This document shows positions 26,621-62,300 of a stretch of 64,000 nt of DNA, piece by piece. Both the position numbers and the translations under genes were made by a program. Positions within the stretch are counted from its first letter, which is position 1. The number at the start of each line of letters is the position of its first letter. The DNA lies in the NCBI RefSeq assembly GCF_001447785.1, contig NW_015165238.1, positions 66,539-130,538 on the forward strand, in the 5' to 3' direction. Origin of the DNA: Gekko japonicus (taxonomy: Eukaryota). The notes beneath the pieces were generated by a model. That model made no database searches and was not told the DNA's origin. It worked only from the letters and a program-made list of their open reading frames with translations.

Positions 26621-26860
26621 ACCTTGATGAGGCTACTTTTCCAACAAGATAAATGAACAAAGAACATTGTACAGGGTATATGCTTCATATGTTTATGAAG
26701 AAACCTTCATTGCTGGGTGAATCCTGAATTACTTTGCAGTCTAGAAACCTCTGTTTCATTTGCCCTGTTTATGAGGTGCTGTGGGTTGTCATTAAGGGGA
26801 CTGTCCATATGGGAATAATATCTATGAACCTCTGGAGAGTGTTTAGTCCTTGGGGGGGAA
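26621..26860 (-). promoter_or_regulatory. Candidate promoter + non-coding exon 1 for OR 23700-24668
   Basis: TAATGA on - at 26789-26794; O/E-like cctctggag 26829 and tccttgggg 26847; donor AAG|GTATGA at 26621-26623. Layout matches four paralogous modules. Confidence 0.5.
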
Positions 26861-27656
26861 ACAAAGAGTTTGTACAACCCATTTCTACCGATGAAACTTA
26901 TTTTTAATTACCAAGATTATAAATAACAAGAAAAATGTATTAGAATACTATACCAAATCTTTGCTGTTGTAAAAGATGAACATTGCAACTTTAAAGAGTT
27001 TGTTGCAGTTCACTGTCTTCTGGCACTTAATGTCATTGATTGAACTTAGCATGTAAAAAAAAATAGATTGGTCTTTTGCCAGCTTGCTTCCATTTTAGTT
27101 CATATAGCTTTCCTCCCTCCTCCATCTTGGTGCAGGGACCAGCTTTGCCTCTTTCGGTCTCTGATTCAAATGATCAGTTTCTGTCTAACTCCACCACAAG
27201 AAAGCCAGTGGAGGAACAGGATCATGCTTAATCTCATTACTTTCACTGCACTGGAATATGTTGTCAAGACCTTTGCCAGAGGAAGAAACAAGACAATGGG
27301 AGATACCTGACTGGGTCTTCCACTGTTTTAAAAAGCTTGCCAGCAGATGCAGAGCTCTCCAAATTAGATGGAGGCTATGGCTTTAGAATGTGTTTATGGG
27401 TGTTAACCTTATCACACATTGCTTTCCCAGGTTAATAATGTGGTTATCTGCAGCTTTCCTTCTATTGTACAAACAGTTGGAAATATCGTAAATTTTCCCT
27501 CAAGGGCACATTGGGGAAAGCGTAACTTAAATAAGGAAAATAGCACGGGTGGAAAAGTTAACCCACCTCCCCTTGTGACTCTTACACAGGTGAAGCCCCC
27601 CAAACACTTTTAAGGTTTTTTTGGGTTTTTTTTTAAATGGGAGGACTTTAACCAAC

Positions 27657-28297
27657 TGGGGCAGCGGTGGCTCAGTGTTTAAGATGCTGAACTGCAGACT
27701 GGATGGTCAGTAGTTTGGCAGTTCGAGACTGCCACAGGAAGTGGTGGGTGCTACAAGCATGGACGGCTTCAAAAGGGAATTAGATAAGCATATGGAGCAG
27801 AGGTCCATCAGTGGCTATTAGCCACAAGGTATAGCTAGGGGCTCTGGGGCAAGTGATGCTCTGTCTTCTTGGTGCTTGGGGGGGGTCAACAGTGGGAGGG
27901 CTTCTAATGTCCTGGCCCCACTGATGGACCTCCTGATGGCACTGGTATTTCTGGCCACTGTGTGACACAGAGTGTTGGACTGGATGGGCCTTTGGCCTGA
28001 TCCAACATTGGCGTCTCTTATGTTCTTATGAGACCCGAGTGCCGCATGACAGAGTGAGCTCCCGTCTTTGGTCCCAGCTCCTGCCAACCTAGCAGTTTGA
28101 AAGCAAAACATTGCAATTAGATAAATAGTGGGAAGGTTACCTTCAGTGGGAAGGTAACTGTGCACCTCGCTGTCTAGTCATGCCAGCCACATGATACGTC
28201 TTCGGACTGTGCTGGCTCTTCGGCTTGGAACCAGAGATGACCACCGTCCCCTAGACTCAGCGGACTGTGGCTGTCGAGCAAGGGAAACCTTTACCTT
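27657..28297 (+). mobile_element. Sauria SINE containing a nested CR1 3' end
   Basis: Head gcggtggctcagtgtttaagatgctg; body ctcctgccaacctagcagtttgaaagc; (ACCTTT)n tail. Confidence 0.85.
27730..28029 (+). mobile_element. CR1 LINE 3' end nested in a Sauria SINE
   Basis: Ends ctcttatgttcttat; flanked by a gagac duplication; near-identical to 63430-63747. Confidence 0.85.
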
Positions 28298-29190
28298 TAA
28301 CCACATACCTCCCATCATCTCATCTAGTTTGATCTGGAGAGAAAAAGGTACTGAACTGACAAGGCAATACTGATAGGGAAAATCTGGGTTCTTTGTGTTC
28401 TTATGTAACTTTGATCCCTGAAAGCCTGTAGGTCCTTGCCAGATCCATCATGGAATCTCCATTGTCCCGCTGCTAAAATGGAGAGAAGTAGAAAGAAATG
28501 ATGGCACTCAAATGCCAACTTCTTGACTGTTTATTATCCTTCTAGTTTGAGGAAGAGGAGAGTCATTTTGACTTTTTCATGCAAACTATATAAATATCTA
28601 AGGCTGATATATTAAGGCTGCTAGTGGGAGGAAGGATATGAAACTACTCTTTCCTCTCCTCCAAGACAAATATTTTTAAAAAATATTCCACTATACTCTG
28701 AAATTTCCCAGCCATCTTTGGAAGTGCTGACAGCTGGCAATACTTTCTTTTTTGTTGTTGTTGAATGAGGAACGGTGATATATTTAGCTCTGCCCACTGA
28801 TATTGTGGATGTCAGTATTGGCAGTAAAACACTTTTATGCTTCCATTCCACCTTGTTAAGGATCCCAAAGGTGGCAAACAGCCAAAACATGAAAACATTT
28901 TTAAATACATTGTATCCATCTGTTTGTCCGTGGGATTCATAATTCATCAGGAAATTTGGCCACTGGCTTCAAGGAGTTACAGTGCCAAACATGACAGGAA
29001 TCATTCTGGCCCCCCTAATCTCCAGAAATCCCCTTCCCCACTTTTTGCACTAGCTGTCTCTGACAGGTATAACTCATCAGAAAATACATTTTTTAAAAAA
29101 ATGGCCACCAGATACAGAATAATAACAGGAGTCACAGAGACAAAAAATGAAAGGAATTGAGGCATCTTGGCCTGGGTGGCACCGATCCTC

Positions 29191-30856: not shown

Positions 30857-31798
30857 CTATATCTGTCCAGAGAAGAGTTTTCTGCTTAGAATTTTTTTGA
30901 GAGCTGATTTTACCTCCTGATTCCTCAGAGTGTAGATTAGAGGATTTAAAACTGGAGTGACTACACTGTACAATAGAGTAATGATCATGTCTCTTTCAGA
31001 AGATGCACCAGCGGAGGTGAGCATGTAGTTGGAAAGAACTGGAATATAGAAAGCAGTCACGACTGTCAGGTGGGAAGCACAGGTGGAGACAGCTTTCCAA
31101 TGGCTTAGTGAAGACTTGACTTTAAAGAAGAAGAAGGAGAAAACGTAGATGTAGGAGAGAAGAATGAAGAAGAAGGGACCCAGAGCAATAGAACCAGTGA
31201 CAGTATTAAGAAGGGTGATATTAAGGGTGATACTACTACAGGCCAATTCTAGCAGGGGCTTGATGTCACAGAAAAAGTGGTGGACATGATTGGGACCACA
31301 AAACCATAGCTGTGAAGTCACCACTGTGTGCATCAGAGCATGAAAGAACCCAATACACCATGTAGCCCCAACTAGCAGGAAGCAAGTCCTTTTATTCATT
31401 ATGGCAGTGTAACGTAGAGGGTTGCATATAGCCACACAGCGGTCAAAAGCCATGACACCTAGAAGCAGAGCCTCACTACTTCCCAGGAAGTGGAAGAAGT
31501 GAAGTTGAGGGAGGCACCCAATAAATGAAATTGCTTGGTTCTCTATTAATAAGCCATTCAGCATTTTTGGCATGGTAACAGTGGAATAAAATATGTCCAG
31601 ACAGGAGAGATTGCTTAGGAAAAAATACATGGGAGTATGAAGCCGAGGCTCGACCAGTGCTACAGCCAAAATGACTCCATTGCCCAGCAAACTGGCCATA
31701 TAGAGCAGCAGGAAAAGTATGAAGAGAATGAGTTGCTTTTGGTGGTCTTTTGTCAGTCCCAGAAGAATAAACTGATGCACCTGTGTATGGTTCTCCAT
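30857..31798 (-). CDS. Olfactory receptor, OR12D-like (intact; probable start MENHTQ; in-frame upstream ATG at 31846 is probably intronic)
   Basis: Full OR motif set, MAFDRC variant; start aligned to paralogues; polypyrimidine + cacag acceptor just upstream of the ATG. Confidence 0.93.
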   Translation of the reverse strand: MENHTQVHQFILLGLTKDHQKQLILFILFLLLYMASLLGNGVILAVALVEPRLHTPMYFFLSNLSCLDIFYSTVTMPKMLNGLLIENQAISFIGCLPQLHFFHFLGSSEALLLGVMAFDRCVAICNPLRYTAIMNKRTCFLLVGATWCIGFFHALMHTVVTSQLWFCGPNHVHHFFCDIKPLLELACSSITLNITLLNTVTGSIALGPFFFILLSYIYVFSFFFFKVKSSLSHWKAVSTCASHLTVVTAFYIPVLSNYMLTSAGASSERDMIITLLYSVVTPVLNPLIYTLRNQEVKSALKKILSRKLFSGQI

Positions 31799-34717: not shown

Positions 34718-34970
34718 ACCTGGATGGTTTTTCTTATTCTTTCTGTCATGATATGAAACTTCACAAAAAATCAACAAAGCCCCAATAAGGTTGGATCTTC
34801 AGCTCTCCATTGTTCAGGCAAAAATAGAAGAGTCATTGAAATTTCTCTTTATATTATGAATTCACATTTGTTGCATTTACTCTTATAAAGCCTTCAGCAT
34901 CTCATTAGGGGAGAGAAATTCATTTGTGGTGATTTAATCCTTGGGATATCCAAATCCCAGGAGCAAAAAC
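34718..34970 (-). promoter_or_regulatory. Candidate promoter + non-coding exon 1 for OR 30857-31798
   Basis: TAATGA on - at 34902-34907; O/E-like tccttggga 34938 and tcccaggag 34955; TATA-like at 34881-34890; donor CAG|GTATGA at 34718-34720. Confidence 0.6.
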
Positions 34971-35669
34971 AGAGCTCCTTGGTGCATGGGAGGCACAGGT
35001 GAAGAAGGATTTCCACCAGCTCTGTTAGGACTGGATGTTTTTGGGGAAAGGAAGGAATCAATGTAGGGGATGTATGTAAGGGAAAAGATACCAAGACTTG
35101 TGTAACAAGTGATAGTGCTAAGAAGGCTGGAGTTAAGGGCCAATCTGAGGAAGGGCTTGACATAACAAAAGAGGTGCTGAATATTATTTTTAACTAGTAG
35201 TGAATCCATTTGTATTCAACCCTATGAGTTGTATATATCTCAAAATTCCTCTTTCTCTGCAGTGAAACCATTAAGAAGAAAACCATGAAGAAGAAAATGC
35301 AAGACTGAGTTTAGGAGACATATGGCTGATCATGATTGTTTCCACTGACTAAACACATAGAAATGCCCTATGGAAAGTGGGGGGGGGGTTTAAGTGTTTG
35401 ACCTTACAACTCATACCTGCAGGGCTTGCATTTTTCTTTCAGTCAAGATATTTAAAAATGTTTTGTAAATTGAAACTCACAGAGACGTAGCTCAGCAGAA
35501 TTAAATGATTTCATTATATTGCAAAACTAGAAAAGCCAAATGTAGCTGATTTGTGTATTCATCATAGCTACCAGCTGATCTGTGTATTTATAATATCTAA
35601 CCAGTTTAAGCTGCCTTGAGCCTGCTTTACAGGGAGGGTGGGGTACAAATTCAATAAATAAATAAATAA

Positions 35670-37718: not shown

Positions 37719-38660
37719 TCATGTCCTTCCAGACATCAGTTTCCTGGTCAACATTTTTTTCAGAGCAGATTTTACCTCTTGATTCCTAAGAGTATAAATT
37801 AGAGGATTCAAAACTGGAGTGATTGCACTATACAATATAGTGACAATCATCTCCCTTTCAGCCGATTCACCCGTAGATGCAAGCATGTAGTTGGAAAGAA
37901 CTGGAACGTACAAGAGAGCTACAACCGTCAGATGGGAGGCACAAGTTGAGAAGGCTTTCCAACGGCTCTTCCAGGACTGGACTTTGAAGAAGAGGAAGAA
38001 TATGATGTAAAAGTAGGAAAGAAGGGTGAGGAAGAAGGCACCCAGAGCAATTGAACCAGTGACAATATTAAGAAGGCTGAGGTTGAGAGTGGTACTACTG
38101 CAGGCCAATTTTAGGAGGGGCTTGATGTCGCAAAAGAAATGCTGGACATGATTGGAGCCACAGAACCATAGACGGGAGGTCAGAACTGTGTGCATAAGGG
38201 CATGGAAGAAACCAGCAGCCCAGGTCGCCCCAGCTAGCAGGAGACAAGTCAATTTATTCATGATGACCGTGTAACGCAGAGGGTTGCAAATAGCCACACA
38301 GCGATCAAATGCCATAACACCCAGAAGGATGCCTTCACTGCTTCCCAAGAAGTGGAAAAAGTGCAGCTGAGTCAGGCACCCAGTAAAAGAAATTGCCTGA
38401 GGCTCCACTAGGAACCCACTCAGCATTTTTGGCACAGTAACAGTACAACTACATATGTCCAGCCAGGACAGATTGCCTAGAAAAAAGTACATAGGGGTGT
38501 GAAGGCGTGGTTCTACTACCACTACAGCCAAAATAGCTCCATTCCCCAATAAGCTGGCTATGTAGATCAGCAGAAAAAATATAAAGAGAATGTGTTGGTT
38601 TTGGTGGTCTTTTGTTAGTCCAGTGAAAACAAACTCATGCATCTCTGTCTGGTTTTCCAT
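37719..38660 (-). CDS. Olfactory receptor, OR12D-like (intact; start MENQTE)
   Basis: Full OR motif set, MAFDRC variant, NQT sequon; acceptor ttccacag 2 nt before the ATG. Confidence 0.94.
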   Translation of the reverse strand: MENQTEMHEFVFTGLTKDHQNQHILFIFFLLIYIASLLGNGAILAVVVVEPRLHTPMYFFLGNLSWLDICSCTVTVPKMLSGFLVEPQAISFTGCLTQLHFFHFLGSSEGILLGVMAFDRCVAICNPLRYTVIMNKLTCLLLAGATWAAGFFHALMHTVLTSRLWFCGSNHVQHFFCDIKPLLKLACSSTTLNLSLLNIVTGSIALGAFFLTLLSYFYIIFFLFFKVQSWKSRWKAFSTCASHLTVVALLYVPVLSNYMLASTGESAEREMIVTILYSAITPVLNPLIYTLRNQEVKSALKKMLTRKLMSGRT

Positions 38661-44073: not shown

Positions 44074-44087
44074 GTTTATACCCATAG

Positions 44088-44655: not shown

Positions 44656-44693
44656 ACTATTAAAATTATTTACAATGAAAAGTACTGCACAAA

Positions 44694-45619: not shown

Positions 45620-45846
45620 ATCAGTGGCTATTAGCCACAAGGTATAGATAGGAACTCTCAGTCTGGGGCAAGGGATGCTCTGTATTCTTGGTGCTTGGGG
45701 GGGGGAGTGGGAGGGCTTCTAGTGTTCTGGCCCCACTGCTGGACCTGATGGCACCTGGTTTTTTTTGCCACTGTGTGACAGAGTGTTGGACTGGATGGGC
45801 CTTTGGCCTGATCCAACATTGGCTTCTCATATGTTCTTATGTTCTT
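45620..45846 (+). mobile_element. CR1 3' end
   Basis: catcagtggctattagccacaagg..ctggatgggcc..tatgttcttatgttctt. Confidence 0.85.
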
Positions 45847-47459: not shown

Positions 47460-47632
47460 TTAAGAGAACATAAGGGAAGTCAATGGCTCATCCAGTCCAA
47501 CACACTGTTTCACCCAGTGGCCAACACCAAGGTGCCATCAAGAGGTCCACCAGTAGAGCCAGAACTCCAGAAGCCCTCCCACTGCTGCTCCCCAAGCATC
47601 AAGAATACTGTGCCCCAGACACAGTGTTCTCA
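47460..47632 (-). mobile_element. CR1 3' end (degenerate)
   Basis: Reverse complement of the same CR1 3' UTR. Confidence 0.7.
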
Positions 47633-47919
47633 GTCCCTAGGAAATGTAGAAATGGGACCAGATTTCTCAAACAAAGATGATGCTGTGATTTTCTTGATCA
47701 CTGTCTCTTTGGTTGTGCACAAGGCTATCCCTGTACTTCTGACATTAGCCACCATGTCATGAGAGAGCATGTGGACATGACTGAGCACAATATTGACCTT
47801 TCTAGGAATATTTTCCTTTATGCATATTGACATGTGTAAATGGGAACATCTCCTACTACATTCCCAGTCTTTGTTAGGGACTCTTGCGTAGGATAGATCA
47901 TAATGGAATGTTGTGGATG

Positions 47920-48284
47920 TAGGGTTGCCACGTCTGAATGCAACACCGGTGGGGTGTGGAAGGGAACTTTCCAGGAGTGGGGGGAACACCGAGACATGCT
48001 GACATCACATGAAAGTGGCATCATCGCATCAGGGATGTTGCACAGTGATGCTCTGGTTTTTGGTAAAAACTTTACAGTATAATCAGCCTCAAATCATACA
48101 GTTTTCCCCAAATACAAGATCATCAATGTACAGCATCCCTAACATGCTGACATCACTTCCATGTGATGTCAGTGCATTGCTGTTTCTGGGTGGGACTTCC
48201 TTCTGCTCGCCAGGTGGCCAGTGGTGGGCAGAAGCCCAAAAAACTGAAGGTCCCCCTCCTCCCCATTGGGGAATGGCAGCCTTC
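47920..48284. mobile_element. Old hAT-type MITE (tagggttgcc family)
   Basis: tagggttgcca ... tggcagccttc; flanks tgtggatg / tgtgaatc. Confidence 0.6.
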
Positions 48285-48923
48285 TGTGAATCATCACTTA
48301 CAACATGTTATTCTGTTCTTTCTTCATGTGTCACCTGTACATCATGAGGTTCATTGTGTCTACCCTGACAAGCAAGCTGCCAAAGTGGTTAATAAAGTCA
48401 GGTTTATCTCATGAAGGGTAATAGAAATCTATCAGGAAATCTGTCCCAGTTTCTGGCTATGGATTACATGGATGCACTCATCTCCTCAAAATTTTTATTA
48501 TTTTTACTGAATATGACTTGAACAAGAAGAAGAAAATATCATCAAGTTGTAACCAACTCATGACAACCCCATCTATGGTGTGTTCGGGGGAAGAGACGAG
48601 CAAAAGTAGTTTTCCATTGCCTTCCTTTGCATAGCAATCCCATTCTTCTTTGGCAATCTCCCAACCAAGTGATATATTGGACAACTCTGCTTAGCTCCCA
48701 AGTGCTGATGAGCTCAGATTAAGCTGGGCTATCCAAACTGCTTGAGTTGAACAAAGATATAGGTAATGGGGGCAGAGGGGAGAACATTAAAGGATCATCT
48801 TAGATACACTTCAACAGGGATGCAGCCAGTGCAGTGACTCTACAAATCTTAATGAATGCATCTTGGTCAATCAAGAGTATGAAAGAAATGTGGGGACAGG
48901 AAACCAAGAGGGGGAAAATAAAT

Positions 48924-49865
48924 TCATATCCTTCCAAACAAATGTTTTCGGCTGAAGATTTTTTTCAGAGCAGATTTTACCTCTTGATTTCTCAATGTGT
49001 AGATCAGAGGGTTCAAAACTGGAGTGACCACACTGTACAATATAGTGATGATCATCTCTCTTTTAGAAGATTCCCCAACGGATGCAAGCAAGTAGTTGGA
49101 AAGAACTGGAACATACAAGAGAGCCACAACCGTCAGGTGGGAGGCACAAGTCGAGAAGGCTTTCCAACGGCTCTTCCAGGACTGGACTTTGAAGAAGAGG
49201 AAGGAAATGATGTACAAGTAGGAGAAAAGAGTGAGGAAGAAACCACCCATAGCAATGCAGCCAGTCACAATATTAAGGAGGCTGAGGTTGAGGGTGGTGC
49301 TACTGCAGGCCAATTTTAGCAGAGGTTTGATATCACAGAGGAAGTGCTGAACATGATTGGGGCCACAGAACCGTAACAGAGAGGTCGCCATAGTATGCAT
49401 CAAGGCATGAAAAAAGCCAGCAGTCCAGGTGGCCGCAGCTAGCAGCAGGCAAGTCAATTTATTCATGATGACTGTGTAACGCAGAGGGTTGCAGATAGCC
49501 ACGTAGCGATCAAATGCCATAACCCCCAGAAGGATGCCCTCACCACTGCCCAGGAAGTAAAAGAAATGCAACTGAACCAGGCATCCAATGAAAGAAATTG
49601 CTTGGTGTTCTGTTAAGAAGCCATTCAGCATTTTGGGCACCGTAACAGTGGAGTAGCAGATGTCCAGGCAGGACAGATTGCCTAGAAAAAAATACATAGG
49701 TGTATGGAGTCGAGGCTCAGCTATAGCGACAGCCAGAATGGCTCCATTTCCCAGCAAACCACCCAAGTAGAGCAGCAGGAACATCACAAAGAGAGTGTAC
49801 CGCTCCCTGTGGTCATCTGTAAGACCCAGGAGAATGAACTCATGCACTTCAGTCCGGTTCTCCAT
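48924..49865 (-). CDS. Olfactory receptor, OR12D-like (intact; probable start MENRTE; upstream ATG at 49913 probably intronic)
   Basis: Full OR motif set ([32 protein letters not shown]); acceptor tttccacag 2 nt before the ATG. Confidence 0.94.
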   Translation of the reverse strand: MENRTEVHEFILLGLTDDHRERYTLFVMFLLLYLGGLLGNGAILAVAIAEPRLHTPMYFFLGNLSCLDICYSTVTVPKMLNGFLTEHQAISFIGCLVQLHFFYFLGSGEGILLGVMAFDRYVAICNPLRYTVIMNKLTCLLLAAATWTAGFFHALMHTMATSLLRFCGPNHVQHFLCDIKPLLKLACSSTTLNLSLLNIVTGCIAMGGFFLTLFSYLYIISFLFFKVQSWKSRWKAFSTCASHLTVVALLYVPVLSNYLLASVGESSKREMIITILYSVVTPVLNPLIYTLRNQEVKSALKKIFSRKHLFGRI

Positions 49866-50288
49866 TGCTGTGGAAAGAAAACAACAACAGCAAAGCCAGT
49901 TACTCTGTTCCAAATGGAATGGAAGTCTTTGAAAAAGAAACCAGAACAGGGATAGCTACGGACCTATTGAGTTAGTTGTTTTGTGGTTCTCCAGTAAAAA
50001 AAAAAAAGAGTGTCATACAAACATAACACATGCTTGCTTGTTTTAGTTCCCCAGTTACATTTACATTTGACACATTCATAATGCAGCATTCACACTAGCA
50101 TAGAAAAAAGTTTTGCATTGATAGCCCCTGGATAGCTGGCTTTCCAGAATAATGATGGAACTGTAATGATCAATTGCTGTGGAAATACCTTTTTAACAAA
50201 GCAGAGTTAAATCAAATCAACATTGACTGATCTCCAAGAAAGTATTTAGTGGAACATTACGAATTTTAAATTTCATGTTCGAATGTTA

Positions 50289-50705
50289 TTTATTTATTTA
50301 TTTATTTAATTAATATTTAGATTTCTATCCCGCCCTCCCCACAGGCTCAGGGCGGCTAACAGGGCATAATGCCAGATAAAACAATAAAACAATATAAAAT
50401 GTTAAATTACACATAGACAATCAACAAACAGTTAAATAACATCCTAAAACAATTTTCGTGCTCCTCTATTCAGTTCCAGATGTTAAGATTATATTTAAGA
50501 GCAAGATGGCATTCTCAGTAACATAGCTAGACAACTACGGCAGTGCCTATCCCACTGCCCTGCCGTCCCCTAAAAGACGTCCCATTCCCTCCAATGATGC
50601 CCACATCAGGATGGCAATATGCAGAAATCATAGGGCGTTGGTGGAACAATGATGGTGGCAGTTCCTATCCGAAAGCCTGGCGGAAGAGCTCCATCTTGCA
50701 GGCCC
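50289..50705 (-). mobile_element. L2-like LINE 3' end (unit A only)
   Basis: (ttta)n tail, tatcccgccctccc..ggctcagggcgg; tgtta duplicated; empty site ~59210. Confidence 0.8.
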
Positions 50706-50965
50706 TGTTAAAATGTTAGGTTTAAAAAACGCACCATAAGAATGACTGAGAAAGAATCTCTGAATGCTACAAAGGGTGGTTGCATGTGAAACAAAGAAAA
50801 GTGTTGATTAACATGCTACACTCTTCAGATGAAAAGTTTGTAGTTGAATTCCCCTTTGCAATCATTAAGAAGGAAGTAGGCATCCTTTTTCCAGTATATA
50901 CAAGAAAATGAGGAAGAGGAGCATTTTTAAGGGAAGACAAGCTATCCTGGAGGTGATTATGGAAA

Positions 50966-51314
50966 TAAAGGTAAAGGTTTCCCTTGCTTGAAAGCTAGTC
51001 GAATCCAACTATAGGGGGCGGTGCTCATCTCCATTTCCAAGTCGAAGAGCCAGTGCTGTCCGAAGACTTCTTCATTGCCATGTGACTGGCATGACTAAAT
51101 GCCAAGGCATACAGAATGCTGTTACCTTCCCACCAAAGTGGTACCTATTTACCTACTTGCAATTTCTTGCTTTTGAACTGCTAGGTTGGCAGGAGCTGGG
51201 ACCAGAGACAGGAGCTCACTCCATCACATGGCACTACATTCTCGAACTGCCGAACTGCAGACCTTTCAGTCTGCAGCTCAACGTCTTAACCTTTAAGTCA
51301 CCGTGGCCACTTCA
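50966..51314 (-). mobile_element. Sauria SINE, full length
   Basis: TSD attatggaaa; tail aaaggtaaagg. Confidence 0.88.
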
Positions 51315-52509
51315 ATTATGGAAACAGGGACAATTAAATTGGCAGTCGTGAGAATCCTGCAAATATTGAGGTCAATTCTTTCTTTCTTGGCTGTAATGGG
51401 AAGATACCAAATTATTTAAATAAGTAGATAAATAAGTATCTAGATATTTATATCCCACCTGATGTAAATCAGGCAGCTTCCAACATCATCCTCTCCTCCA
51501 TGTTATTTTTACACTAACCTCATGAAGTAGGTAAGACTGAGAAAAAAGAACTGGTCCAAGGTCACCCAGTATGTTTTCATGGCATTGTAGGGATTTGAAT
51601 GGGGTCCTCTCAGATGCTTGTCTGATGCTCTAAGCAGTTCCAAGCCAGGTTTTACTTTTGTCTCTGTCTCCCCACCCCCAGCCAGAATCTAGGGAAGCTA
51701 CCATAAAGACTGTGGTGGGCCTCCTCTTATTTTCTTTCTTGACACTGTTTTGTTCCAAATAGTCATATTCTGTTTACCTGAGAAGATTGTCAGCATATTG
51801 TGGAATGGCTCCTGCATTTTACCAGATTACCCCACTGATGCTGAAAAACCAATCGACAAGGGAATTGATCTTCTTATCTTATCTGCACATTCACACTTAC
51901 TTGCCTTTTCAGAATTCACAAAATAGTCGTAGTCTATGCAATATCTGAGAGGGTTGTTTTTTTTAAAAAAAGCAACCCAAATCTCTTCTTATTTCCTATT
52001 CTAACTGCTATTCATTTTTCTCTGTTGCCTCCAACCACCATTGGCCTCTCCAGTCTTTCCATGATAGGCATATCAAAATCAGGCAACAGAAGGAAGACGG
52101 CAATGTGTCCCCCCTTTCCTACGGAAACATTTGATGCCATGACTGTCATCTCTTATAATTTCTCATTTACCAACTGTAGCCAAGCTATTGTTGGAGATGT
52201 CAGCCCAGAAGTGAGCCATTATATTGATATATACATTCAAAGCATGTTTATGCCACTCCACGTCTTGTAATGTATGTCTTCTACTGTTCAGAGCTTGTTG
52301 AATGTTTCTCTTCTTTCTGTCGTGTTTCTCGTCTTCCTGTAAATTCTTATATCCTGAAAGGCTCTCTGCTACTTAAGAACAAAGTTTTCATTTATTTTTT
52401 GTTTTTGCACTTCAATTGTTTAAGAGAACTTAGAGACTGTAACTCTACATGGCTGGAACTGGTGTATTTTCTTAGTTCTGCTAATATCTGTAACCTTTTT
52501 TAGAAACGA

Positions 52510-52635
52510 TAGGGTAGACATGTTGGTCTAAAGCAGAATAACAAAGTTTGAGTCCAATGGCACCTTTGAGACCAACAAAGTTTTATTCAAGATAGAAGCT
52601 TTCATGTGCAAGTACACTTCTTCAGATATAGAAGA
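52510..52635 (-). ncRNA. Penelope-type repeat half with a minimal hammerhead-ribozyme motif
   Basis: Minus strand: tat CTGAAGA a gtgt actt gcac at GAAA gcttc tat (core 52600-52625). Confidence 0.45.
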
Positions 52636-53578
52636 AGTAATACATTGCAGGCATGAGCACTGAGAAATTCTCCACAGATTCTATTATATCTATTATATTA
52701 TACAACTGAACAGATAAACTGGCTTGTATGGTAGGTTATGGCTGTCCACTTTTCACCTGGCAACTGCACCTATGTCTTGACATGGGCAGTTATCAGGCAG
52801 AAGAATGACATGGAGAAAAGCATTATTACCTGCTAAATGGTGCAAATTTAGCTGCTTCTAAGGATACAGAATAGGGAACCGTGTTTTAGTACTCAATGGG
52901 AAATGCAGGAAGACATTCCAGACATGTAAAAACTACATTTTGCTTGTTTTCTTATACCTACCTCACTTCTGTCACAGGGTAGGATCCTACTGGCTTATAC
53001 CCCATGTAAATGAAGGAAAAGAGGCCTTTGTTAACCCCCCCAAAAAGGCTTTGCTTAGGGTCATGGGGCCTGCATGGACAAAAGTCATGGGATGACAGCT
53101 GTAGTAAGAGGGAGAATTGGATGAGATTGAATGAAAAACCTTGCTGATTTCCACCCACTATGTAATTGGAGGCATTTATACTTCATACTTTCCCCCTTTC
53201 TGCTACTCAACTAGGCAAGAGAGGACATGGGATGGAGTATGAGAGAGCCTTGAAGCTGACAATGTTTATACCCACAGTGGTGGTGGATAGTGCTGTCAAG
53301 CCACAGCTGACTTATGGCAACCCCGTAGGGTTTTCAAGGCAAGGAACATTCGCAGGTGCTTTGCCATTCCCTGCCTCTGCATCACAACCCTAGACTTCAT
53401 TGGTGGTCTCCCATTCAAGTACAAACCAGAGCTGACACTCCTTAGTTTTGGGAACTGATGAGATCAGGCTAGCCTGGGCTATCCAGGGCAGGGCAATACA
53501 CAGAGATTCAACACTAATAACAGTTCAATGGAATATGAAAAGAAATATCCAAAGGCAACTATTTGCTCCCTGTCTCAT

Positions 53579-53865
53579 ACCTGGATTGGTTATGTTTTTT
53601 GTCTTCTGAAGAGGTTAAACCTGTACCTGAGAAGGTGAAGTGGTATGAGTAATTTTCAACTTCTGGAGAAGATGAAGATGAAGAAGAGTGGGTTTAGGAT
53701 GATAGAACATTGCTTTATTATGTTTATCTGTGTCGACATCTCATTAAGGGGGAGAAGTTTTTTTGTTTTTTTTTAAGAGGAGGTTTGACTCCTGGGACAC
53801 ACAAAGCCAGAAGAGAGTTCCTTTGGTTTTGAAAGCATGAATGATTGCTTAAATCTCAGGAGAGA
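53579..53865 (-). promoter_or_regulatory. Candidate promoter + non-coding exon 1 for OR 48924-49865 (duplicate of the 44.5 kb module)
   Basis: TAATGA on - at 53741-53746; ctcctggga 53789; tctcaggag ~53854; donor CAG|GTATGA at 53579-53581. Confidence 0.6.
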
Positions 53866-55285
53866 AAACGATTAAAACTATTTAAAATGAAAAGTGCTGC
53901 ACAAATATATTTGAGGTGGACATTCTCTTTTTACCAGGATATACAAATAGGCCCTTACTTGTTTATTTTTGGCTAGGTGTGTTGTCATTGCTTTATCCAT
54001 TTTCAGATCCAATTTCAATTGTTTTCTTCCATTTTATATCCTAAGAGATCCATCAGTGGAGCTGAGCATACCTCGTAGGAATTTCCTACCCCAACCCCCC
54101 GGAGATAGGGCACTCTCATGGACAACACAGCAGACCAAAAAATAAAATGGTTTGGAGGACAAAAATCACCACTTTAATATCATTTTGTACCATTGCTATG
54201 CCGAGGCATCCCATTCTATTACATTTCATCAGTGAAATTTCATTCTGATCTGGAAGAACCCATTTCAGAAACTGGGGTTTGCAAATGAAAACATTGTGCT
54301 CACAATATTTGTTAACATCTCTAATTTGAGAAGGGCCCTGCTTGTATCTTTCACAACAATACAACATAGGAAATTATGAAGTGACCTTTTTCCTGAATGG
54401 GGAAATTGCGGGGGAAACTTTCACCTGGCTGAATCAGGCTACAGTAGGGAGCCTAGCCACAACTGCCTTTTGTTTGTCTTTGTTTGGGAAAATCCATCCT
54501 GGCTCCATCCTGACCAGTGGCCTTGCTTATGCTTTCCTGTGCACAATGTGCAACAAGCTTCCAAGCCCCATTCCCCTTCCCTGTTACACGGTAAAACCAC
54601 TACCAGGTTTGAAAATGTCACTCAGCGCCAAGAGCATTCCTTTCCAAGCCCCATTTTGTCATAAAGCCAATGATGGTCAGTTCCAATCATGCCCACTATC
54701 ACCAGGCCTCATTACTGGCTAATCCTACAGTGGTTAACCCTATAGTATCCCATGGGAAGGTGGGTCGGTCTGCAGCACACAGCAAATGCCTGCTTGGAGG
54801 GGTGTCGTTTGTCTAAGTAGCTGCACTGCTGCCCTTTGACTGGAACACTTCCAGTCCTGATCAATTATTGCCTTGTGCATTTGGCAGAAAGAAGCTAGGG
54901 GAAACATGTCCATGGCTGCTAATGCCATGAATGCCACTCACCTAATTTGGAACATGCATAGACAAAAGCCATGTGGGGCAAAGGCAAGAATAAGGAGGAA
55001 AATTAGGTGAGATTGAGAGGAAAAGCTGACTAGATCCAAGGCACTGGTGTGTGTATGTTTCTTAGCTAGTATGTATTCACAGTAATAGTTTTTAGGGATA
55101 ACTTTGATAATTAGTCCATGGAGTCACACTGTCATCCAGGGTTAAAGCATAATTACAGCTTTTGTATTTTGCCATATCAAAATTTTTTCAGGCTCAGGTT
55201 TGCTTCATCAGATGGATGAAATTATATGATCAGCTGACAATATCTCCATTTATTTCTAAATCTTCTTTCTCTTTGGAGGAACTAT

Positions 55286-55750
55286 GGCCAAGTTCAGACT
55301 GGCAGTTTTCCCCGATATAGACACGTTTCAGAAACGTTCCATAACTGGATTAAAAGGGCCGCTCACACAGGCACATCTGTCAGGCGTTCTCCACCCGTAC
55401 TCAACCCGTCTTGTAACACTTCGCTCCCGAGTTTAAAAGATACCTAGTGAAAGTGGTAGCAAACCTTGGAAAGTGCGATTATCCCATGTCCATCCCGCAC
55501 CAAAAAAGTGTGAACGCCAAGAGCCACATTTTTCTTATGTGCATATGTGCATAAACGCATATCTCCAGATTACCAAAAAAGCTGCGCCTTACAGCGGTGC
55601 CTCTGGGCCAACAGTGTGAACGCTCCCTTGTGCCTCCTCCTGCTTTTGCTCCCGCATCAGTCGCTGCAGTGTGAACAGGAGAACCCGGAACAGTTCTCTT
55701 TTTTTTGCCAGGACTCCCTCCCGCTTCAAACTGCCAGTCTGAACTCAGCC
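55286..55750. mobile_element. PIF/Harbinger-type MITE (unit B only)
   Basis: TIR ggccaagttcagactggcagttt / aaactgccagtctgaactcagcc; TSD tat; empty site gaactataagg at ~47316. Confidence 0.9.
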
Positions 55751-55949
55751 TATAAGGGAGTTATAGATATATTTGCTTTTTTGTTAAGAGTCAGGCATCA
55801 AGGCTTGTCTGCTTCAAAACAGAACAGTACTTTATTTTCTGAAAACATGTACATTTTCAGAGATCATGTACATTAAGGGAAAGTCTTACTCTTCCACAGC
55901 CAGTGAAGTAACTCCACAAAACTTATTCACATGATATCACAATGAAACT

Positions 55950-57700
55950 CTTTCTTTTTTAATTAATAAGACATTCATTATGTTCACAAAAGAAGAGCAA
56001 TCTAAATGTAGAACTATTATAACATTATCGACTGGTAGATATGCCAAGAAAACCTAGGCTAAACCTATACTTTTTGTACGATTTTTGAACACTCACATAA
56101 CAATTCATATTGATACATGTTCACAATAACCTTACAGGTTTAACCAGATTCTATCATTGTTTCTACATGGAAGAACTTCATTCTGTCTCAGAAACCCAAT
56201 AACTGGCTTCCAGATTTCATCATAATTGCAGGGTGAAACAGACAACTGGGAACCAAGAAAGAAAGAATTGTTCTCTGTTTTCCCCATGATATAGACATCC
56301 CAAATTTTGTCAAACCAGGCATCTATGGAAGGCCCATTTTGGTTTTTCCAATTGGCTGCAATTACCTGCCATGGAGCTGCAATCAATATCAAGACCAAGG
56401 AATGTAGGTACCCTTTTATTATGGGGATGGAAGATGGCCAAGTGGTTGGCAAACATTGGTTTAGGATGCATTACAGATTGATGTTAAGCTGTTTTTGAAG
56501 TTTACATGAAGTTGATAAGCTGTAATTTTTCAATTAGATCCTTCTACTCTACACTTGATTCTTGCTTAAATTAAGGTAAATTAAGATTGTTATTTACTGG
56601 ATTGCATAGTTAGTTTGTATTTTTTTCTTTTTCTAACAAATTTGAACTGTAGTTGTATTTTCCACAAAACTAATTGTACCACTGGTAAAAAACAACAACC
56701 AGATTTATCTTTTTTTCTCTTTTTTACTATTGTAATAGTACTATAGAAGTTTAATAAAATGTTTTTTTTAAGGCCAAAGAATGTTGACTCTTTTCCATTG
56801 AATAATCTGGCCAGAAATTAAAAACAAAAAGGTCTGAAGACATAGTGAGAGAAATGTCTAAGATTTGTGAGATCTTATCAGCAACTGTGCCCCAAAAGGA
56901 TTGGATCACTGGACAAGCCCATCATAGATATAAGGGAGGGGGGGCTCATTGATTACACCCTTTCCAGCAAAGTAGGATTCAATTTTATTAAGTTTGGTTG
57001 GTCACAGATACCAGTTAGAGATTGTCTTATAAAATCGGAGCTTTAAAGGAACTATAGATGATTTGTTAGAAGGGGAGTTTCACATTTTCTGCCATTCTTT
57101 AGGAGTTAATGTCCATTTTAATTCTTTCTCCCAAATCTTAGTGTATGTAGGGGGTTTGTTGTTGATTGTATGTTGGAGGTTCTTATAAATTTTAGTCAGT
57201 GAATGTTTGGTTTTCTTTTCTGTGTTTCTGAGAATTTCTTCAAATTCTGTTAATGTCAGAAGAAGATGACCATCTTTTATTAATTGCATTATTAAATATT
57301 GCATTTGAGAGCACTGAAACCAGTTAATTTGATGACCTAATTTGTCCTCTGCCATAATTTTAGAAATAATAGTGCCATTCAACATCCAGGCACAAAGCCT
57401 ACCTAAACCAGTCCTCATCCATTCCTGGTATCTGAAGGGTTCCCAGCTAGGGGAAAACCACTATTTAAAATAGTTGATACTGGAGAGGGATAAGGAGCTC
57501 AGATTTTTCTGTAATTATCACAAATTGTTAAAGTATTATAGAGGAAGGGATTCACCAGGATTAAATGAGATCTAAACTTCCGTGCTGTCCCCATAGTTTC
57601 TATGAAACTATTTCCATGTTTCAGGATTCCCAACAATCTGGAACCAATATATATGGGAGAAAATCAAGGCCAGCGTAACTGGGGCAGGCAAAACCCTGTT
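55950..57700 (-). mobile_element. L1/Tx1-clade LINE ORF2 3' portion, degenerate
   Basis: TKIWEKEL..EWQKM; CWKGC..WWACPVIQSFW; IAANWKNQNGPSIDAWFDKIW..EIWKPV. Confidence 0.75.
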
Positions 57701-57845
57701 CACTTTGATTAGCATGCTTTACAGCCCAGTTTAGTTTGCCCTGTAGTCACTTAACAAGGGCCACCAACAATCATGCATACCTATTTTAGATAATAAATAC
57801 ATGATAGAGATGTGGGTACAGGAAACAGAGAGTCAGAAAATAAAT

Positions 57846-58787
57846 TCATATTCTTCCCAACAAATGTTTCCGGCTGAAGGTTTTTCTCAGAGCAGACTTT
57901 ACTTCTTGATTTCTCAGTGTGTAGATCAGAGGGTTCAAAACTGGAGTGACCGCACTGTACAATATAGTGATGATCATCTCTCTTTTAGCAGATTCCCCAG
58001 CGGACGCAAGTAAGTAGTTGGAAATAACTGGAACATACAAGATAGCCACAACTGTCAGATGGGAGGCACAAGTTGAGAAGGCTTTCCAGCAGCTTTGCCA
58101 AGACTGGACTTTGAGGAAGAGGAAGGATATGATATAAAAGTAGGAGAGAAGGGTGAGGAAGAAGGCACCCAGAGCAATTGAACCAGTGACAACATTAAGA
58201 AGACTGAGATTGAGAGTGGTACTACTGCAGGCCAATTTTAGGAGGGGCTTGATGTCACAAAAGAAATGCTGGACATGATTGGGGCCACAGAACCATAGGC
58301 GGGAGGTCAGAACTGTGTGCATAAGGGCATGAAAGAAACCAGCAACCCATGTGGCCCCAGTTAGCAGAAGGCAAGTCAATTTATTCATGATGACCATGTA
58401 ACGCAGAGGGTTGCAGATAGCCACGTAGCGATCGAATGCCATAACCCCCAGAAGGATGCCCTCACCACTGCCCAGGAAGTAAAAGAAATGCAACTGAACC
58501 AGGCATCCAATGAAAGAAATTGCTTGGTGCTCTGTTAAGAAGCCACTCAGCATTTTGGGCACCGTAACAGTGGAGTAGCAGATGTCCAGGCAGGAGAGAT
58601 TGCCTAGAAAAAAGTACATGGGGGTATGCAGTCGAGGCTCAGCTATAGCAACAGCCAGAATGGCTCCATTTCCCAGCAAACCGGCCAAGTAGAGCAGCAG
58701 GAACATCACAAAGAGAGTGTACCGCTCTCTGTGGTCATCTGTAAGACCCAGGAGAATGAACTCATGCACTTCAGTCCGGTTCTCCAT
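57846..58787 (-). CDS. Olfactory receptor, OR12D-like (intact; probable start MENRTE; upstream ATG at 58835 probably intronic)
   Basis: Full OR motif set; N-terminal half nearly identical to the 48924-49865 gene. Confidence 0.94.
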   Translation of the reverse strand: MENRTEVHEFILLGLTDDHRERYTLFVMFLLLYLAGLLGNGAILAVAIAEPRLHTPMYFFLGNLSCLDICYSTVTVPKMLSGFLTEHQAISFIGCLVQLHFFYFLGSGEGILLGVMAFDRYVAICNPLRYMVIMNKLTCLLLTGATWVAGFFHALMHTVLTSRLWFCGPNHVQHFFCDIKPLLKLACSSTTLNLSLLNVVTGSIALGAFFLTLLSYFYIISFLFLKVQSWQSCWKAFSTCASHLTVVAILYVPVISNYLLASAGESAKREMIITILYSAVTPVLNPLIYTLRNQEVKSALRKTFSRKHLLGRI

Positions 58788-60354
58788 TGCTGTGGAAAGA
58801 AAACAACAACAGCAATGCCAGTTATTCTGTTCCAAATGGAATGGAAGTCTTTGAAAAAGAAACTATAATAGCTATGGACCTTTTGAGTTAGTTGTTTTGT
58901 GGTGGTTCAGTCAAAAAACATGAGTGTCATAGAAACATAACACATGCTTGCTTGTTTTAGTTCCCCAGTTACATTTACTTTTGACATATTCATAATACAG
59001 TATGCAGTCAGGTGTTCACACTGGAGTACAATTTTTTTTTGCATTGACAAGGTCCCAGATAGCTGGCTGTCCAGAATAACAATGGAATTGTATAATGATC
59101 AATTGCTGCAGAAATACCATTACCAAAACGCAGTTAAATAAAGTCAATATTGACTGGTCATCAAGAAAGTATTTAGTGGAACATTATGAATGTTTAATTT
59201 CATGGTTGAATGTTAAAATGTTAGGTTAAAAAAAAACATAAATATGACTGAGAAAGAATCTCTGATTTGTAAGGCCGGGGATAATACAAGTCATATCCCA
59301 CCTGATGTAAATCAGGAAGGTTACAACATCATTCTCTCCTCCATGTTATTCTCACACTACCCCCTTGAGGTAGGTTAGACTGAGAGAGAAGAACTGGCCC
59401 AAGGTCACCCAGAATGTTTCCATGGCACTGTAGGGATTGAACTGGGGCCTCTCAGATGCTAATGTGATGCTCTAACCACTACAGCACACAACAGTTCCAA
59501 GCCAGGTTTTACTTATGTCTCTCCCCAGTCAGAATCTAGGGGTGCTACTATGAAGACTGTGGTGGACCACCTTCTCTTTCCTTTCTTGACACTATTTTGT
59601 TCCAAATAAAGTCATATTCTGTTTACCTGAGAAGACTGTCAGCATATTGTGGAAGGGCTCCTGCATTTTGCCACATTACCCCACCGATGCTGGAAAACCA
59701 ATCAACAAATGAATGACTCTTCCCATCTTCTTTGCACGTTCATACTTGCTTGCCTTTTTAGAATTCACAAAAATAATCACAGTCTGTGCAATATCTGTGA
59801 GGGATTTTAAAAAAAAGCAAACCTAATTCCATGGCAAATCACTTCTTATTTCCTATTTCAATTCCTGTTCCATTTTCTGTGTTGCCTCCCAGCACTATTG
59901 GCCTCTCCAGTTTTTCCGTGACAGAAATATAAAAACCAGGCAACACAGAAGGAAGACAGCAATGTGTTGCCCCTCTCCTACCTAAACATTGATGCCATGA
60001 GTGTCACCCCTTATCATTTCTCATTTACCAGCTGTAGCCAAGCTATTGCTGGAGTTGTCAGATTACTGTACATCCAGATTCAGAGCATGTTTATGCCATT
60101 GTAATGTATGCCTTCTACCGTTGAGAGCTTGTTGAATGTTTCTCTTGTTTCCCTTCTTTCTGTCATGTTTCTCATCTGCCTGTAAATTCTTATATCCTGA
60201 AAGGCTCTCTGCTACTTAAGAATGAAGTTTGTGTGTGTTTGTTTTGTTTTTGCATTTCAGTTGTTCAAGAGACCTTATCGAATGTAACTGCATGCCTGGA
60301 ACTGGTGTATTTTCTTAGTTCTTCTAGCATCTGTAACCTTTGTGAGAAACGGGT

Positions 60355-60580
60355 GGGTAGCTGTGTTGGTCTGAAGCAGCAGAACAAAGTTGGAATCCAG
60401 TGGCACCTTTAAGAGCAACAACCTTTTATTCAAGGTGTAAGCTGTCGTGTGCACACACATTTCTTCAGATACAGAAGTATCTACAGGTATATGAAGAAGC
60501 GTGCTTGCAGACGAAAGCTTATACCTTGAATAAAACTTTGTTGCTCTTAAAGGTGCCCCTGAACTCCAACTTTATTCTTT
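60355..60580. mobile_element. Penelope-type palindromic repeat with two hammerhead-like motifs
   Basis: Inverted arms ggcacctttaagagcaacaa..ttttattcaagg / ccttgaataaaac..ttgttgctcttaaaggtgcc; + strand aggtat-ATGAAGA-stem-GAAA-gctt-atacct at 60485-60526. Confidence 0.7.
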
Positions 60581-62020
60581 GATAGAAAGTGGGTGTTATT
60601 GCCTAGGGACATAAGTGGATCCATCTTACGCAGAGCAGAGTTGGGGTCGTTTCCATCCACTGATCTCAATATGACTATGTGCAAGTAAGTTTGTAAATGG
60701 CTGGGTTTTTTGTAAGCTTATGTACTGTTCTGGGGAGTAAATGTCATTGAATAGTAAGGATTGTGTTATAAGTAAACATGCATAACATCTGGCTGCAGCC
60801 TTTTAAAGAATGGCAGCACTACCTGTGATCCAGAATCTGCTTTTTCCCAGACAGAGGACAATGATATACATGTTTCTAAAAATCCATTTCAGTGTTTGAT
60901 TTGAAAGTAAATGTTCTGAATTTACTTATATTTCATTACCAGTTTCTTATCTTAATAGCAAACTTTATTAAAATATGAAACCACTGCAATTCAACTTCCA
61001 TTAGGAAAATATCAGTGCTGCTGAAATGTTAACAATAAAAAACAAATGATATTAAATGATTTTGTTAATTTGAATATTTGTCTCTCTTGCATACATTACC
61101 AGGTCTCTTGCCTTCGGTAATATTTACCTTTTGAATGGACTAAGATGAGAGTTTCTCCTCAGATTTTGCTACAGATGTTCCTACAATTGAAGAGGCAAGA
61201 CGCTTAACTAAGCCATACTTTGCCTTTTGGTCTATGGCTGTCATATCTGTGCCTCGTTCCTGTTGCAGTTCCTTCAACAGTGACATGATAATCAAAAATT
61301 ATTAGGCAGCCCTCGTAAGTACACGGAGAAAAAGTGTTCATTTACTAATCTCTGCAAATCAAGCTGCTGTTAAAGATACAAAGCAGTGATGAAATGATTC
61401 AGCATTATATAAAATTTGGGGAGACATTTTTCAATGCAATTCTGAGCAGAGTTTTACCTTTCTGTGTTTATTGATGTCACATCAATATTGGCACAATTGG
61501 CACAATATTGGCACATCAATATATGCACAATGGCATGACTCTGCTTAGGACTGCACTGCTGTGCTCCGTTAAAAACATGTAGGTGGCATTTTTTTAATAA
61601 AAGAAAGATTTTTCAAATAAAATAAAACACAGAAATAATTTACAGTATATCATGATAAACCCATAGCAACTCAGCATACATGTTTATAAGTAATTTATTA
61701 ATCCAATGGCTAATGATCCAGAGTAGACCAATTAACCTGCAGGTCAACCACATATACCTCAAATAGGTCTCACCTTCATCTTTATGCTGGTAGCAACAAA
61801 CCTTGCTTTTCAAAGAGAGATAAATGTATCCCCATTTCCCATAGTTATCCTGATCAGACAGTGCAGTCTGTACTTAGCTCATAATTCTTCCTTTTCTGCA
61901 AACACCGCCGTGTATGGGAGAACACAGGACCTAGGAATCATATTGCTGGCAATGATTGCACCCACAGACTGAACACTTAATAATATATCAAAACATATTG
62001 CCCCACCCCCAATGAGTTAT

Positions 62021-62300
62021 ACCTGTGCGGATTATCTTTCTTTTTTTCCAGATATGTTAAATTAGTATGTAAAATAAAAGTCACCAAGAGAGACAATACC
62101 AGCCACAACAAAAGTAGACAACTAAACTTATCCAGGGAATATGAGAACACTCATCAATCATTTTGATCTATTATAAAAGGTTCATCATATGATTAGGGGG
62201 AGAAAATCTTTTCAGGTGATTTAAGCCCTGGGATATGCAATACCAAAAGAGAGTTTGTTTGGTTTTGAAAACATGAAGAATTGATTATGTCTCTGGAGAA
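62021..62300 (-). promoter_or_regulatory. Candidate promoter + non-coding exon 1 for OR 57846-58787
   Basis: TAATCA on - at 62190-62195 followed by ggggagaaa...gatttaagccctgggata...gagagtttgtttggttttgaaaacatgaa...tctctggag, homologous to the other modules; donor CAG|GTATAA at 62021-62023. Confidence 0.55.

What the first reader, a model, noticed from the sequence alone, without database searches (positions are those of the whole stretch)
26621..62300. One conserved promoter/exon-1 module per OR12D-like gene (five copies)
Seen: 2-6 kb upstream of each - strand OR is a ~250-bp module with the same order: O/E-like site(s), then TAATGA/TAATCA, then 160-185 bp, then AG|GTA donor (26621-26860, 34718-34970, 44379-44655, 53579-53865, 62021-62300). 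Intervening DNA is mostly unalignable outside the duplication. Established: Lhx2 homeodomain and Ebf sites drive mammalian OR choice. Inference: this is the reptilian OR promoter grammar, showing deep amniote conservation; it is unannotated by the ORF track.
Basis: partly seen in the sequence, partly recalled or inferred. Interest (0 to 1): 0.7.

Follow-up and report, generated by a model that had tools for sequence, protein, structure and literature searches.

The report
Gecko odorant-receptor promoters, one swapped
Five neighbouring gecko smell-receptor genes each carry a short upstream DNA block that is likely a mammal-style promoter plus first exon, likely handed down by gene duplication rather than shared by all of the lizard's receptor genes, and one gene has its coding part from one neighbour and its upstream block from the other, so it would be switched on like one neighbour while sensing odours like the other.

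Summary
Each of five intact OR12D-like genes (a gecko, by orthologues) has one ~250-bp block 2.0-5.7 kb upstream: weak O/E-like sites, TAATGA/TAATCA, a TATA-like box 18-21 bp later (new) and AG|GTA 163-187 bp on. The pattern hits 5 times on the window's minus strand, 0 on plus, once in 392 kb of control. It is not a dispersed repeat. The best reading is a mammal-type OR promoter plus non-coding exon 1; no transcript evidence was found. It is not a general 'reptilian grammar': M2-M5 are alignable paralogues, M3/M4 come from one duplication, and upstream of 54 other ORs the pattern hit 1 sense site (LINE-like) against 5 antisense. Cross-species conservation was not tested. A second OR family shows similar block/coding discordance. 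A sixth, orphan copy in another OR cluster recalls the mouse P enhancer. The scan noted comparable receptor-promoter motifs on other DNA (V2R, shark), not this one. New member of a known kind; interest 0.38.

The parts
26621..26860 (-). M1: candidate promoter/exon 1 of OR1. O/E-like 26847-26856, TAATGA 26789-26794, TATA-like word at 26773, donor 26623|26622. Not alignable to M2-M5; same order and spacing.
34718..34985 (-). M2: candidate promoter/exon 1 of OR2. O/E-like 34955-34964 and 34937-34946, TAATGA 34902-34907, TATAA at 34887, donor 34720|34719. Its distal part is replaced by an OR coding relic.
44379..44655 (-). M3: candidate promoter/exon 1 of OR3. Distal O/E 44642-44651 with TAATCA 2 bp later, proximal O/E 44576-44585, extended homeodomain 12-mer 44539-44550, TATA-like word at 44526, donor 44381 (second AG|GTA at 44428).
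53579..53865 (-). M4: duplicate of M3 that now lies upstream of OR4. O/E-like sites at 53863 and 53797, TAATGA at 53746, TATA-like word at 53728, donor 53581 (second at 53627).
62021..62310 (-). M5: candidate promoter/exon 1 of OR5. Distal O/E 62290-62299 with TAATCA 2 bp later, proximal O/E 62224-62233, TAATCA 62190-62195, TATAA at 62175, donor 62023.
23700..24668 (-). OR1 coding exon, 322 aa, intact; AG acceptor 2 nt before the ATG
30857..31798 (-). OR2 coding exon, 313 aa, intact; AG acceptor candidates at 31800 and 31802
37719..38660 (-). OR3 coding exon, 313 aa, intact; acceptor 2 nt before the ATG
48924..49865 (-). OR4 coding exon, 313 aa, intact, 91% aa to OR5; chimeric gene (OR5-type coding exon under the OR3-type block M4)
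57846..58787 (-). OR5 coding exon, 313 aa, intact; acceptor 2 nt before the ATG
42933..52634 (.). Duplication unit 1 (distal OR3 intron, M3, intergenic DNA, OR4 and its proximal intron); colinear with unit 2 at 72-88% except for 47322-48878
52638..60477 (.). Duplication unit 2 (M4, intergenic DNA, OR5 and its proximal intron); sharp junction with unit 1 at 52634|52638
60352..60577 (.). Palindromic dispersed repeat (81% self-complementary). The duplication end 60477 lies near its centre, and only its left half (52511-52633) is at the OR4 junction.
35312..35485 (-). Partial seventh copy: 3' half of the candidate exon, donor near 35417 and intron start, between two OR coding relics (36211-36532 and 34986-35188)

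Best explanation
Each block is likely the core promoter and non-coding first exon of the OR gene below it, likely inherited from one ancestral OR12D-like promoter by tandem duplication, and OR4 sits under a copy of OR3's block while its coding exon is OR5-like. Shown: the sites, their order and spacing, homology of M2-M5, the duplication and its junction, intact ORFs under purifying selection. Inferred from mouse: Ebf dimers would bind the O/E-like sites and Lhx2/Emx2-type proteins the TAAT sites. The TATA-like word would set a start about 30 bp further on (near 26743, 34857, 44496, 53698, 62145), giving a 116-138 nt exon spliced from AG|GTA to the AG just before the ATG. A duplication that broke inside the OR3 and OR5 5' introns likely made OR4, which would then be chosen in OR3's zone or frequency while binding OR5-like odorants. 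The fixed layout is a signature of this subfamily, not a genome-wide grammar.
For: One block per gene, same strand, 5 vs 0 hits. Blocks are almost the only non-repeat, non-coding DNA that still aligns between old paralogues: M5 core vs the sixth copy 76%, vs M3 64-68%, proximal core vs M2 78-81%, while flanks give 35-45% against a random baseline of 30-39%. M5-M2 proximal core is 59 of 73 identical against 53% expected from dS 0.73 (p 8e-7; sub-region chosen after seeing it); whole cores give p 0.03-0.04. Conserved islands are the O/E, TAAT, TATA-like and donor positions. Mouse OR promoters carry O/E within 200 bp of the start (78%), homeodomain sites, and TATA at -60 to -10 in a subset (PMC3247239); both motif types are needed for M71 (PMC12547500). 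M3's AACTTTTAATGA matches 12 of 13 letters of J-element HD1 (PMC7804114) and occurs twice in all DNA fetched. Not a dispersed repeat: core 19-mer has 8 exact genome hits (3 window blocks, the sixth copy, one haplotig, 3 stray) against 2 for the reversed control. All ORs have dN/dS 0.07-0.20 where measurable, OR4-OR5 0.17 at dS 0.28, so OR4 stayed under selection with M4 as its only visible block. A second OR family also has a block upstream of most of its genes, ending in a donor, on OR contigs.
Against: No start site or junction was observed. One low-depth contig of run X2 (96% alike) reads 22 nt through the predicted OR4 acceptor; it may be unspliced RNA, DNA, a paralogue or another acceptor. 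All O/E-like sites are 2-mismatch, and M1 and M2 are not enriched over shuffles. M1 shows no sequence homology to the others. M3 vs M4 core is 87% against 84-87% in their introns, so no extra constraint on M4 is visible. The three sister OR12D-like genes have no such block. Only 2 of 31 other paralogue pairs keep an alignable upstream block. Candidate exons of M1 and M2 hold 3 upstream ATGs each. A sixth copy has no minus-strand OR within 25 kb.
Confidence: 0.72

Rival explanations
1. The blocks are functional but are local enhancers (P-element-like) or internal non-coding exons, and transcription starts further upstream.
For: M3, M5 and the sixth copy carry an O/E site with a homeodomain hexamer 2 bp away, close to the enhancer composite motif. 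The sixth copy persists at 76% core identity with no gene below it. The mouse P enhancer was found by similarity to an OR promoter (PMC12547500 section 3.2).
Against: Strict orientation, a TATA-like word at fixed distance and a donor at the end in all five. Spacing is 1 bp wider than the Sfaktiria composite probe and the TAAT core faces the other way in M3 and M5. The 2-bp composite is not enriched in the genome: 135 hits vs 116 control.
Confidence: 0.13
2. The blocks are neutral left-overs of duplication whose motifs are chance; M1 is a chance match.
For: M3/M4 show no excess conservation; motifs are short and degenerate; the pattern was fitted to these five and fails on 54 held-out ORs; whole-core excess over dS is only p 0.03-0.04.
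Against: Flanks have decayed to near baseline while cores and donors stay aligned in three separate comparisons. M1 repeats four features at the same spacing without homology. A deletion next to M2 stops at the block's edge.
Confidence: 0.1
3. The layout is a genome-wide reptilian OR promoter grammar conserved with mammals.
For: Motif classes match mouse OR promoters. A distant OR pair on C16856 keeps a block with TGATTA, 2 bp, O/E. A second family has O/E-like sites and a donor.
Against: 54 held-out ORs: 1 sense hit (in LINE-like DNA, label recalled) vs 5 antisense; looser homeodomain+TATA+O/E pattern 2 sense vs 4 antisense, control rate equal; O/E and TAAT densities in 484 kb of OR-cluster DNA are not above control. 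The second family's blocks mostly lack TAAT sites.
Confidence: 0.04
4. The blocks are copies of a dispersed transposable element.
For: One copy lies away from any cognate gene. The genome DNA search skips very common words, so absence is not proof.
Against: M5 and the sixth copy each find only 4 places, M1 only itself and a haplotig; the exact pattern gives 8 hits vs 2 control; at most 1 hit per block in the other fetched contigs and control stretches.
Confidence: 0.01

Closest known systems
Mouse class II odorant-receptor promoters (O/E + homeodomain, TATA in a subset; Young et al. 2011, PMC3247239: abstract, passages, sections 6 and 10 read; review PMC12547500: passages and section 3.2 read)
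   Same: Compact AT-rich (GC 33-40%), CpG-poor block; O/E-like and TAAT sites within 150 bp upstream of a TATA-like word; one per gene, kilobases upstream of an intronless coding exon.
   Different: Squamate, not mammal; no mapped start, binding or reporter data; O/E sites all 2-mismatch; fixed spacing is inherited within one subfamily.
Extended homeodomain motif of the H, P and J elements and the P3 promoter (PMC7804114, passages read)
   Same: M3 carries AACTTTTAATGA, 12 of the 13 letters of J-element HD1.
   Different: Only M3 has it; M1, M2 and M5 have a C-rich run before TAAT; the 13-mer of H, P and P3 is absent from all DNA fetched.
Greek Island Lhx2/Ebf composite motif (Monahan et al. 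2017, PMC5608512: passages and supplementary files 2 and 7 read; logos not seen)
   Same: An O/E-like 10-mer abuts a homeodomain hexamer in M3, M5, the sixth copy and a distant OR pair.
   Different: Gap is 2 bp, not the 1 bp of the Sfaktiria probe; not enriched genome-wide; it sits in putative promoters, where mouse composites are rare.
Mouse P element (enhancer found by similarity to an OR promoter; PMC12547500 section 3.2)
   Same: The sixth copy (G000:C13562:69483-69856) is a promoter-like copy with O/E and homeodomain sites inside another OR cluster and has no gene of its own.
   Different: It keeps TATA and donor, has lost the proximal TAAT, and has no functional data; it may be a relic.

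Membership tests
Mammal-type OR promoter | Lies upstream of an OR coding exon, same strand, one per gene | tested here: met
   5 of 5 minus-strand ORs of the window, 2.0-5.7 kb
Mammal-type OR promoter | O/E (Ebf) site within 200 bp upstream of the start | tested here: inconclusive
   Present in 5 of 5 at 2 mismatches; above shuffles in 2 of 4 tested; start site only predicted
Mammal-type OR promoter | Homeodomain (TAAT) site near the O/E site | tested here: met
   TAATGA or TAATCA 38-62 bp after the proximal O/E-like site in 5 of 5
Mammal-type OR promoter | AT-rich, no CpG island | tested here: met
   GC 0.33-0.40, 0-1 CpG per block
Mammal-type OR promoter | Transcription starts in the block and exon 1 splices to the coding exon | tested here: inconclusive
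   4 runs laid on 43201-53740 gave no listed piece on the blocks and no listed joint at the donors; tables were cut and depth was 0-6
Mammal-type OR promoter | Bound by Ebf and Lhx2/Emx2; drives sparse olfactory-neuron expression | not testable with these tools
   needs EMSA, CUT&Tag or transgenes
Mammal-type OR promoter | Conserved in orthologous position across species | not testable with these tools
   no other reptile genome held; 26 metagenome loci were distant ORs, 35-48% identical
Greek Island composite-motif enhancer | Lhx2 and Ebf sites at the stereotyped 1-bp gap | tested here: not met
   gap is 2 bp in M3, M5 and the sixth copy against 1 bp in the probe; compared with one probe, not the matrix
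Dispersed transposable element | Many copies unrelated to OR genes | tested here: not met
OR12D-like receptors | Close homology to annotated OR12D1/12D2-like proteins | tested here: met
   OR4 is 91-92% identical to four proteins so annotated in three geckos; OR1-OR5 and three neighbours form one 100/100 clade; orthology to human OR12D not tested

The most novel reading that the evidence does not exclude
Gecko OR promoters are portable cassettes. Because the promoter and first exon sit kilobases from an intronless coding exon, rearrangements that break in the 5' intron re-pair promoters and receptors. OR4 is one such chimera, kept under selection since dS 0.28; a second family carries one 85-89% identical block over receptors only 60-69% identical; and an orphan copy may have become a P-like enhancer. 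Promoter swapping would then be a recurrent way to move a receptor to a new zone or choice frequency without changing its ligand, run by a mammal-like Ebf/Lhx2 code in squamates.
Probability: 0.35. Interest if true: 0.62.

Novelty: new member of a known kind. Interest (0 to 1): 0.38.

Why it matters
Everything I could read on OR promoters is mammalian; three searches for reptile, bird or gecko OR promoters returned nothing on the subject (open-access library only). These blocks give exact, cheap targets (predicted starts, junctions, sites) to ask whether squamates use the Ebf/homeodomain code for receptor choice. The OR3/OR4/OR5 trio is a natural swap experiment: OR4 shares its block with OR3 and its coding exon with OR5, so in situ patterns would separate promoter from coding sequence and position as determinants of zone and frequency. 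The basic kind of element is well known, so surprise is modest.

Tried and rejected
RNA: no listed holder is on record as RNA. This is no evidence either way. Profile HMM of the five blocks over all fetched DNA: only the five, the sixth copy, a haplotig of M1/M2 and the partial relic. Contig C13648 was dropped from all counts as a haplotig. A genome-wide 2-bp composite motif: rejected (135 vs 116; 3 hits in 484 kb, two of them paralogous). Bulk O/E and TAAT density in OR clusters: not above control. O/E-pair-plus-homeodomain clusters: 11 in 322 kb upstream vs 12 in 169 kb control. Blocks shared by the sister genes at C5528:132593 and 150994: GC-rich, hardly any O/E, not promoter-like. Metagenome scan: 26 distant OR loci, not analysed. 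Plessy 2012, Michaloski 2006 and Vassalli 2011 were not held, so nothing is taken from them directly. Searches for OR promoter-swap chimeras gave one general review and nothing.
Full report
Setting. The window lies on contig C5528 of G000 and holds an olfactory-receptor cluster. Five intact minus-strand ORs (ATG 24668, 31798, 38660, 49865, 58787; OR1-OR5) are Pfam 7tm_4. Three more members of the clade lie just beyond the window.

Observation. All five blocks are where stated. On the minus strand each has O/E-like site(s), a pyrimidine run plus TAATGA or TAATCA, and AG|GTA 163-187 bp later, 2.0-5.7 kb above the ATG. Each coding exon has a pyrimidine-rich AG acceptor just before the ATG. The formal pattern hits 5 times on minus and 0 on plus, against 0.58 per strand in 12 shuffles and 1 in 392 kb of control; it was fitted on these five. 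The O/E consensus used is recalled and agrees with the OMP Ebf probe of PMC5608512 (supplementary file 7). All sites have 2 mismatches; counts beat shuffles in M3 and M5, not in M1 and M2.

Not independent, not a repeat. M2-M5 align with each other; M1 does not. Genome searches with M5, M1 and the sixth copy return only these places and a haplotig. An exact core 19-mer has 8 hits (M2, M3, M5, the sixth copy, the haplotig, 3 stray) against 2 for its reversed control.

Constraint. Between old paralogues the blocks are almost the only non-repeat, non-coding DNA that still aligns (two short intron pieces and one 3' piece also do). M5's core is 76% identical to the sixth copy and 64-68% to M3, and its proximal core 78-81% to M2, while flanks give 35-45% and random DNA 30-39%. 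Against neutral identity from dS, M5-M2 proximal core gives p 8e-7 (region chosen after inspection) and whole cores p 0.03-0.04. M3 vs M4 shows no excess over their introns (87% vs 84-87%). dN/dS is 0.07-0.20 for the 8 of 10 OR pairs that were not saturated.

Generality. I fetched five other OR-rich contig stretches and the flanks of the window, giving 54 held-out intact ORs (from 127 scored matches and 1082 candidates) with 407 kb of upstream DNA. The pattern hit 1 sense site, in LINE-like DNA (label recalled), and 5 antisense. A looser pattern gave 2 sense and 4 antisense at the control rate. The three sister OR12D-like genes have no block. Of 31 paralogue pairs at 55-90% identity outside the second family, 2 keep an alignable upstream block; one holds TGATTA, 2 bp, O/E. 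That spacing is not enriched genome-wide (135 vs 116). A second family on C3485/C4053 does have a 550-650 bp block upstream of most of its genes, with O/E-like sites and an AG|GTGAG donor but few TAAT sites; its 19 genome matches fall on 7 contigs, 5 of which hold ORs. So 'one upstream block per OR' recurs, but the layout is subfamily-specific.

The chimera. 42933-47321 aligns with 52638-55285 (M3 with M4) and 48879-52634 with 57801-60477 (OR4 with OR5), meeting at a sharp junction 52634|52638. The middle (47322-48878 vs 55286-57800) does not align beyond 29 bp and is partly repeats. The unit's ends lie inside the putative introns of OR3 and OR5. A palindromic repeat is whole in the OR5 intron (60352-60577) and cut near its centre at the OR4 junction, which marks OR4 as the new copy. 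A tandem duplication, or a two-gene duplication followed by deletion, gives the same product: an OR5-type coding exon (91% aa, dS 0.28, dN/dS 0.17) under a copy of OR3's block. In the second family five blocks are 85-89% identical while most of their receptors are 60-69% identical, and two C3485 genes carry the C4053-type block, which suggests more swaps or conversion.

The orphan. A sixth copy at G000:C13562:69483-69856 keeps both O/E-like sites, the distal homeodomain site, TATA and donor but not the proximal TAAT, has no minus-strand OR within 25 kb and no gap that could hide one. The mouse P enhancer was found by similarity to an OR promoter (PMC12547500, section 3.2).

Mechanism. By analogy with mouse, where O/E sites lie within 200 bp of 78% of 314 starts and TATA in a subset (PMC3247239 section 6) and both motif types are needed for M71 (PMC12547500 passages), Ebf and Lhx2/Emx2-type factors would bind these sites, transcription would start about 30 bp after the TATA-like word, and a 116-138 nt exon would splice to the acceptor. 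Every step here is inferred. RNA contigs gave no test: one 96%-alike contig reads 22 nt through the OR4 acceptor and none of the listed pieces covers a block.

Literature seen. PMC3247239: abstract, passages, sections 6 and 10. PMC3247230, PMC11643329, PMC1995454: passages. PMC7804114: passages and section 7. PMC5608512: passages, supplementary files 2 and 7; figures not seen, so the composite matrix was not applied. PMC12547500: passages and section 3.2. Searches found no reptile OR promoter study; 49 and 69 none on OR promoter swaps; the library lacks most subscription papers.

Verdict. Observation confirmed; interpretation partly supported. New member of a known kind, confidence 0.72 for promoter plus exon 1, interest 0.38. 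The promoter-swap reading has probability 0.35 and would merit 0.62.

Noticed in passing
G000:C13562:69483-69856 (L002), minus strand: Sixth copy of the block in another OR cluster, 76% core identity to M5, proximal TAAT lost, no cognate OR within 25 kb; relic or P-element-like enhancer.
   Followed up: partly
G000:C3485, C4053, C11369, C3597, C17517 (e.g. L038:6900-7351): Second OR family with a 550-650 bp upstream block ending in AG|GTGAG; five blocks 85-89% identical over receptors mostly 60-69% identical, suggesting promoter swaps or conversion.
   Followed up: partly
G000:C16856:104943 and 97256: Only conserved upstream block of a distant OR pair holds TGATTA, 2 bp, O/E-like, the same spacing as in M3 and M5 but in the opposite orientation to the gene.
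   Followed up: partly
window 34986-36532: Scrambled relics: OR 5' part (36211-36532), palindromic repeat, gap, partial block with donor (35312-35485), OR 3' part (34986-35188) that abuts M2 and replaced its distal sites.
   Followed up: partly
window 60352-60577, 52511-52633, 35882-36127: Palindromic repeat family; the duplication end lies about 11 bp from the centre of one copy, which would fit a hairpin-induced break.
   Followed up: partly
window 44694-45067: Two 185-bp tandem copies (98%) begin 40 bp upstream of M3; not aligned in the M4 unit beyond 44733.
   Followed up: no
window 48879: OR4's homology to OR5 ends 45 bp after the stop; its only poly(A)-like signal within 2 kb lies 424 nt downstream in unrelated DNA.
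   Followed up: partly
G000:C13648: Contig duplicates M2, M1 and OR1 at 100% where compared; likely an unmerged haplotig.
   Followed up: yes
window 5616-6548, 13806-14733, 17369-17851: An intact plus-strand OR with a 99% aa duplicate at C5528:29590, a broken plus-strand OR, and a fragment that looks like V2R-type transmembrane sequence (recalled).
   Followed up: no
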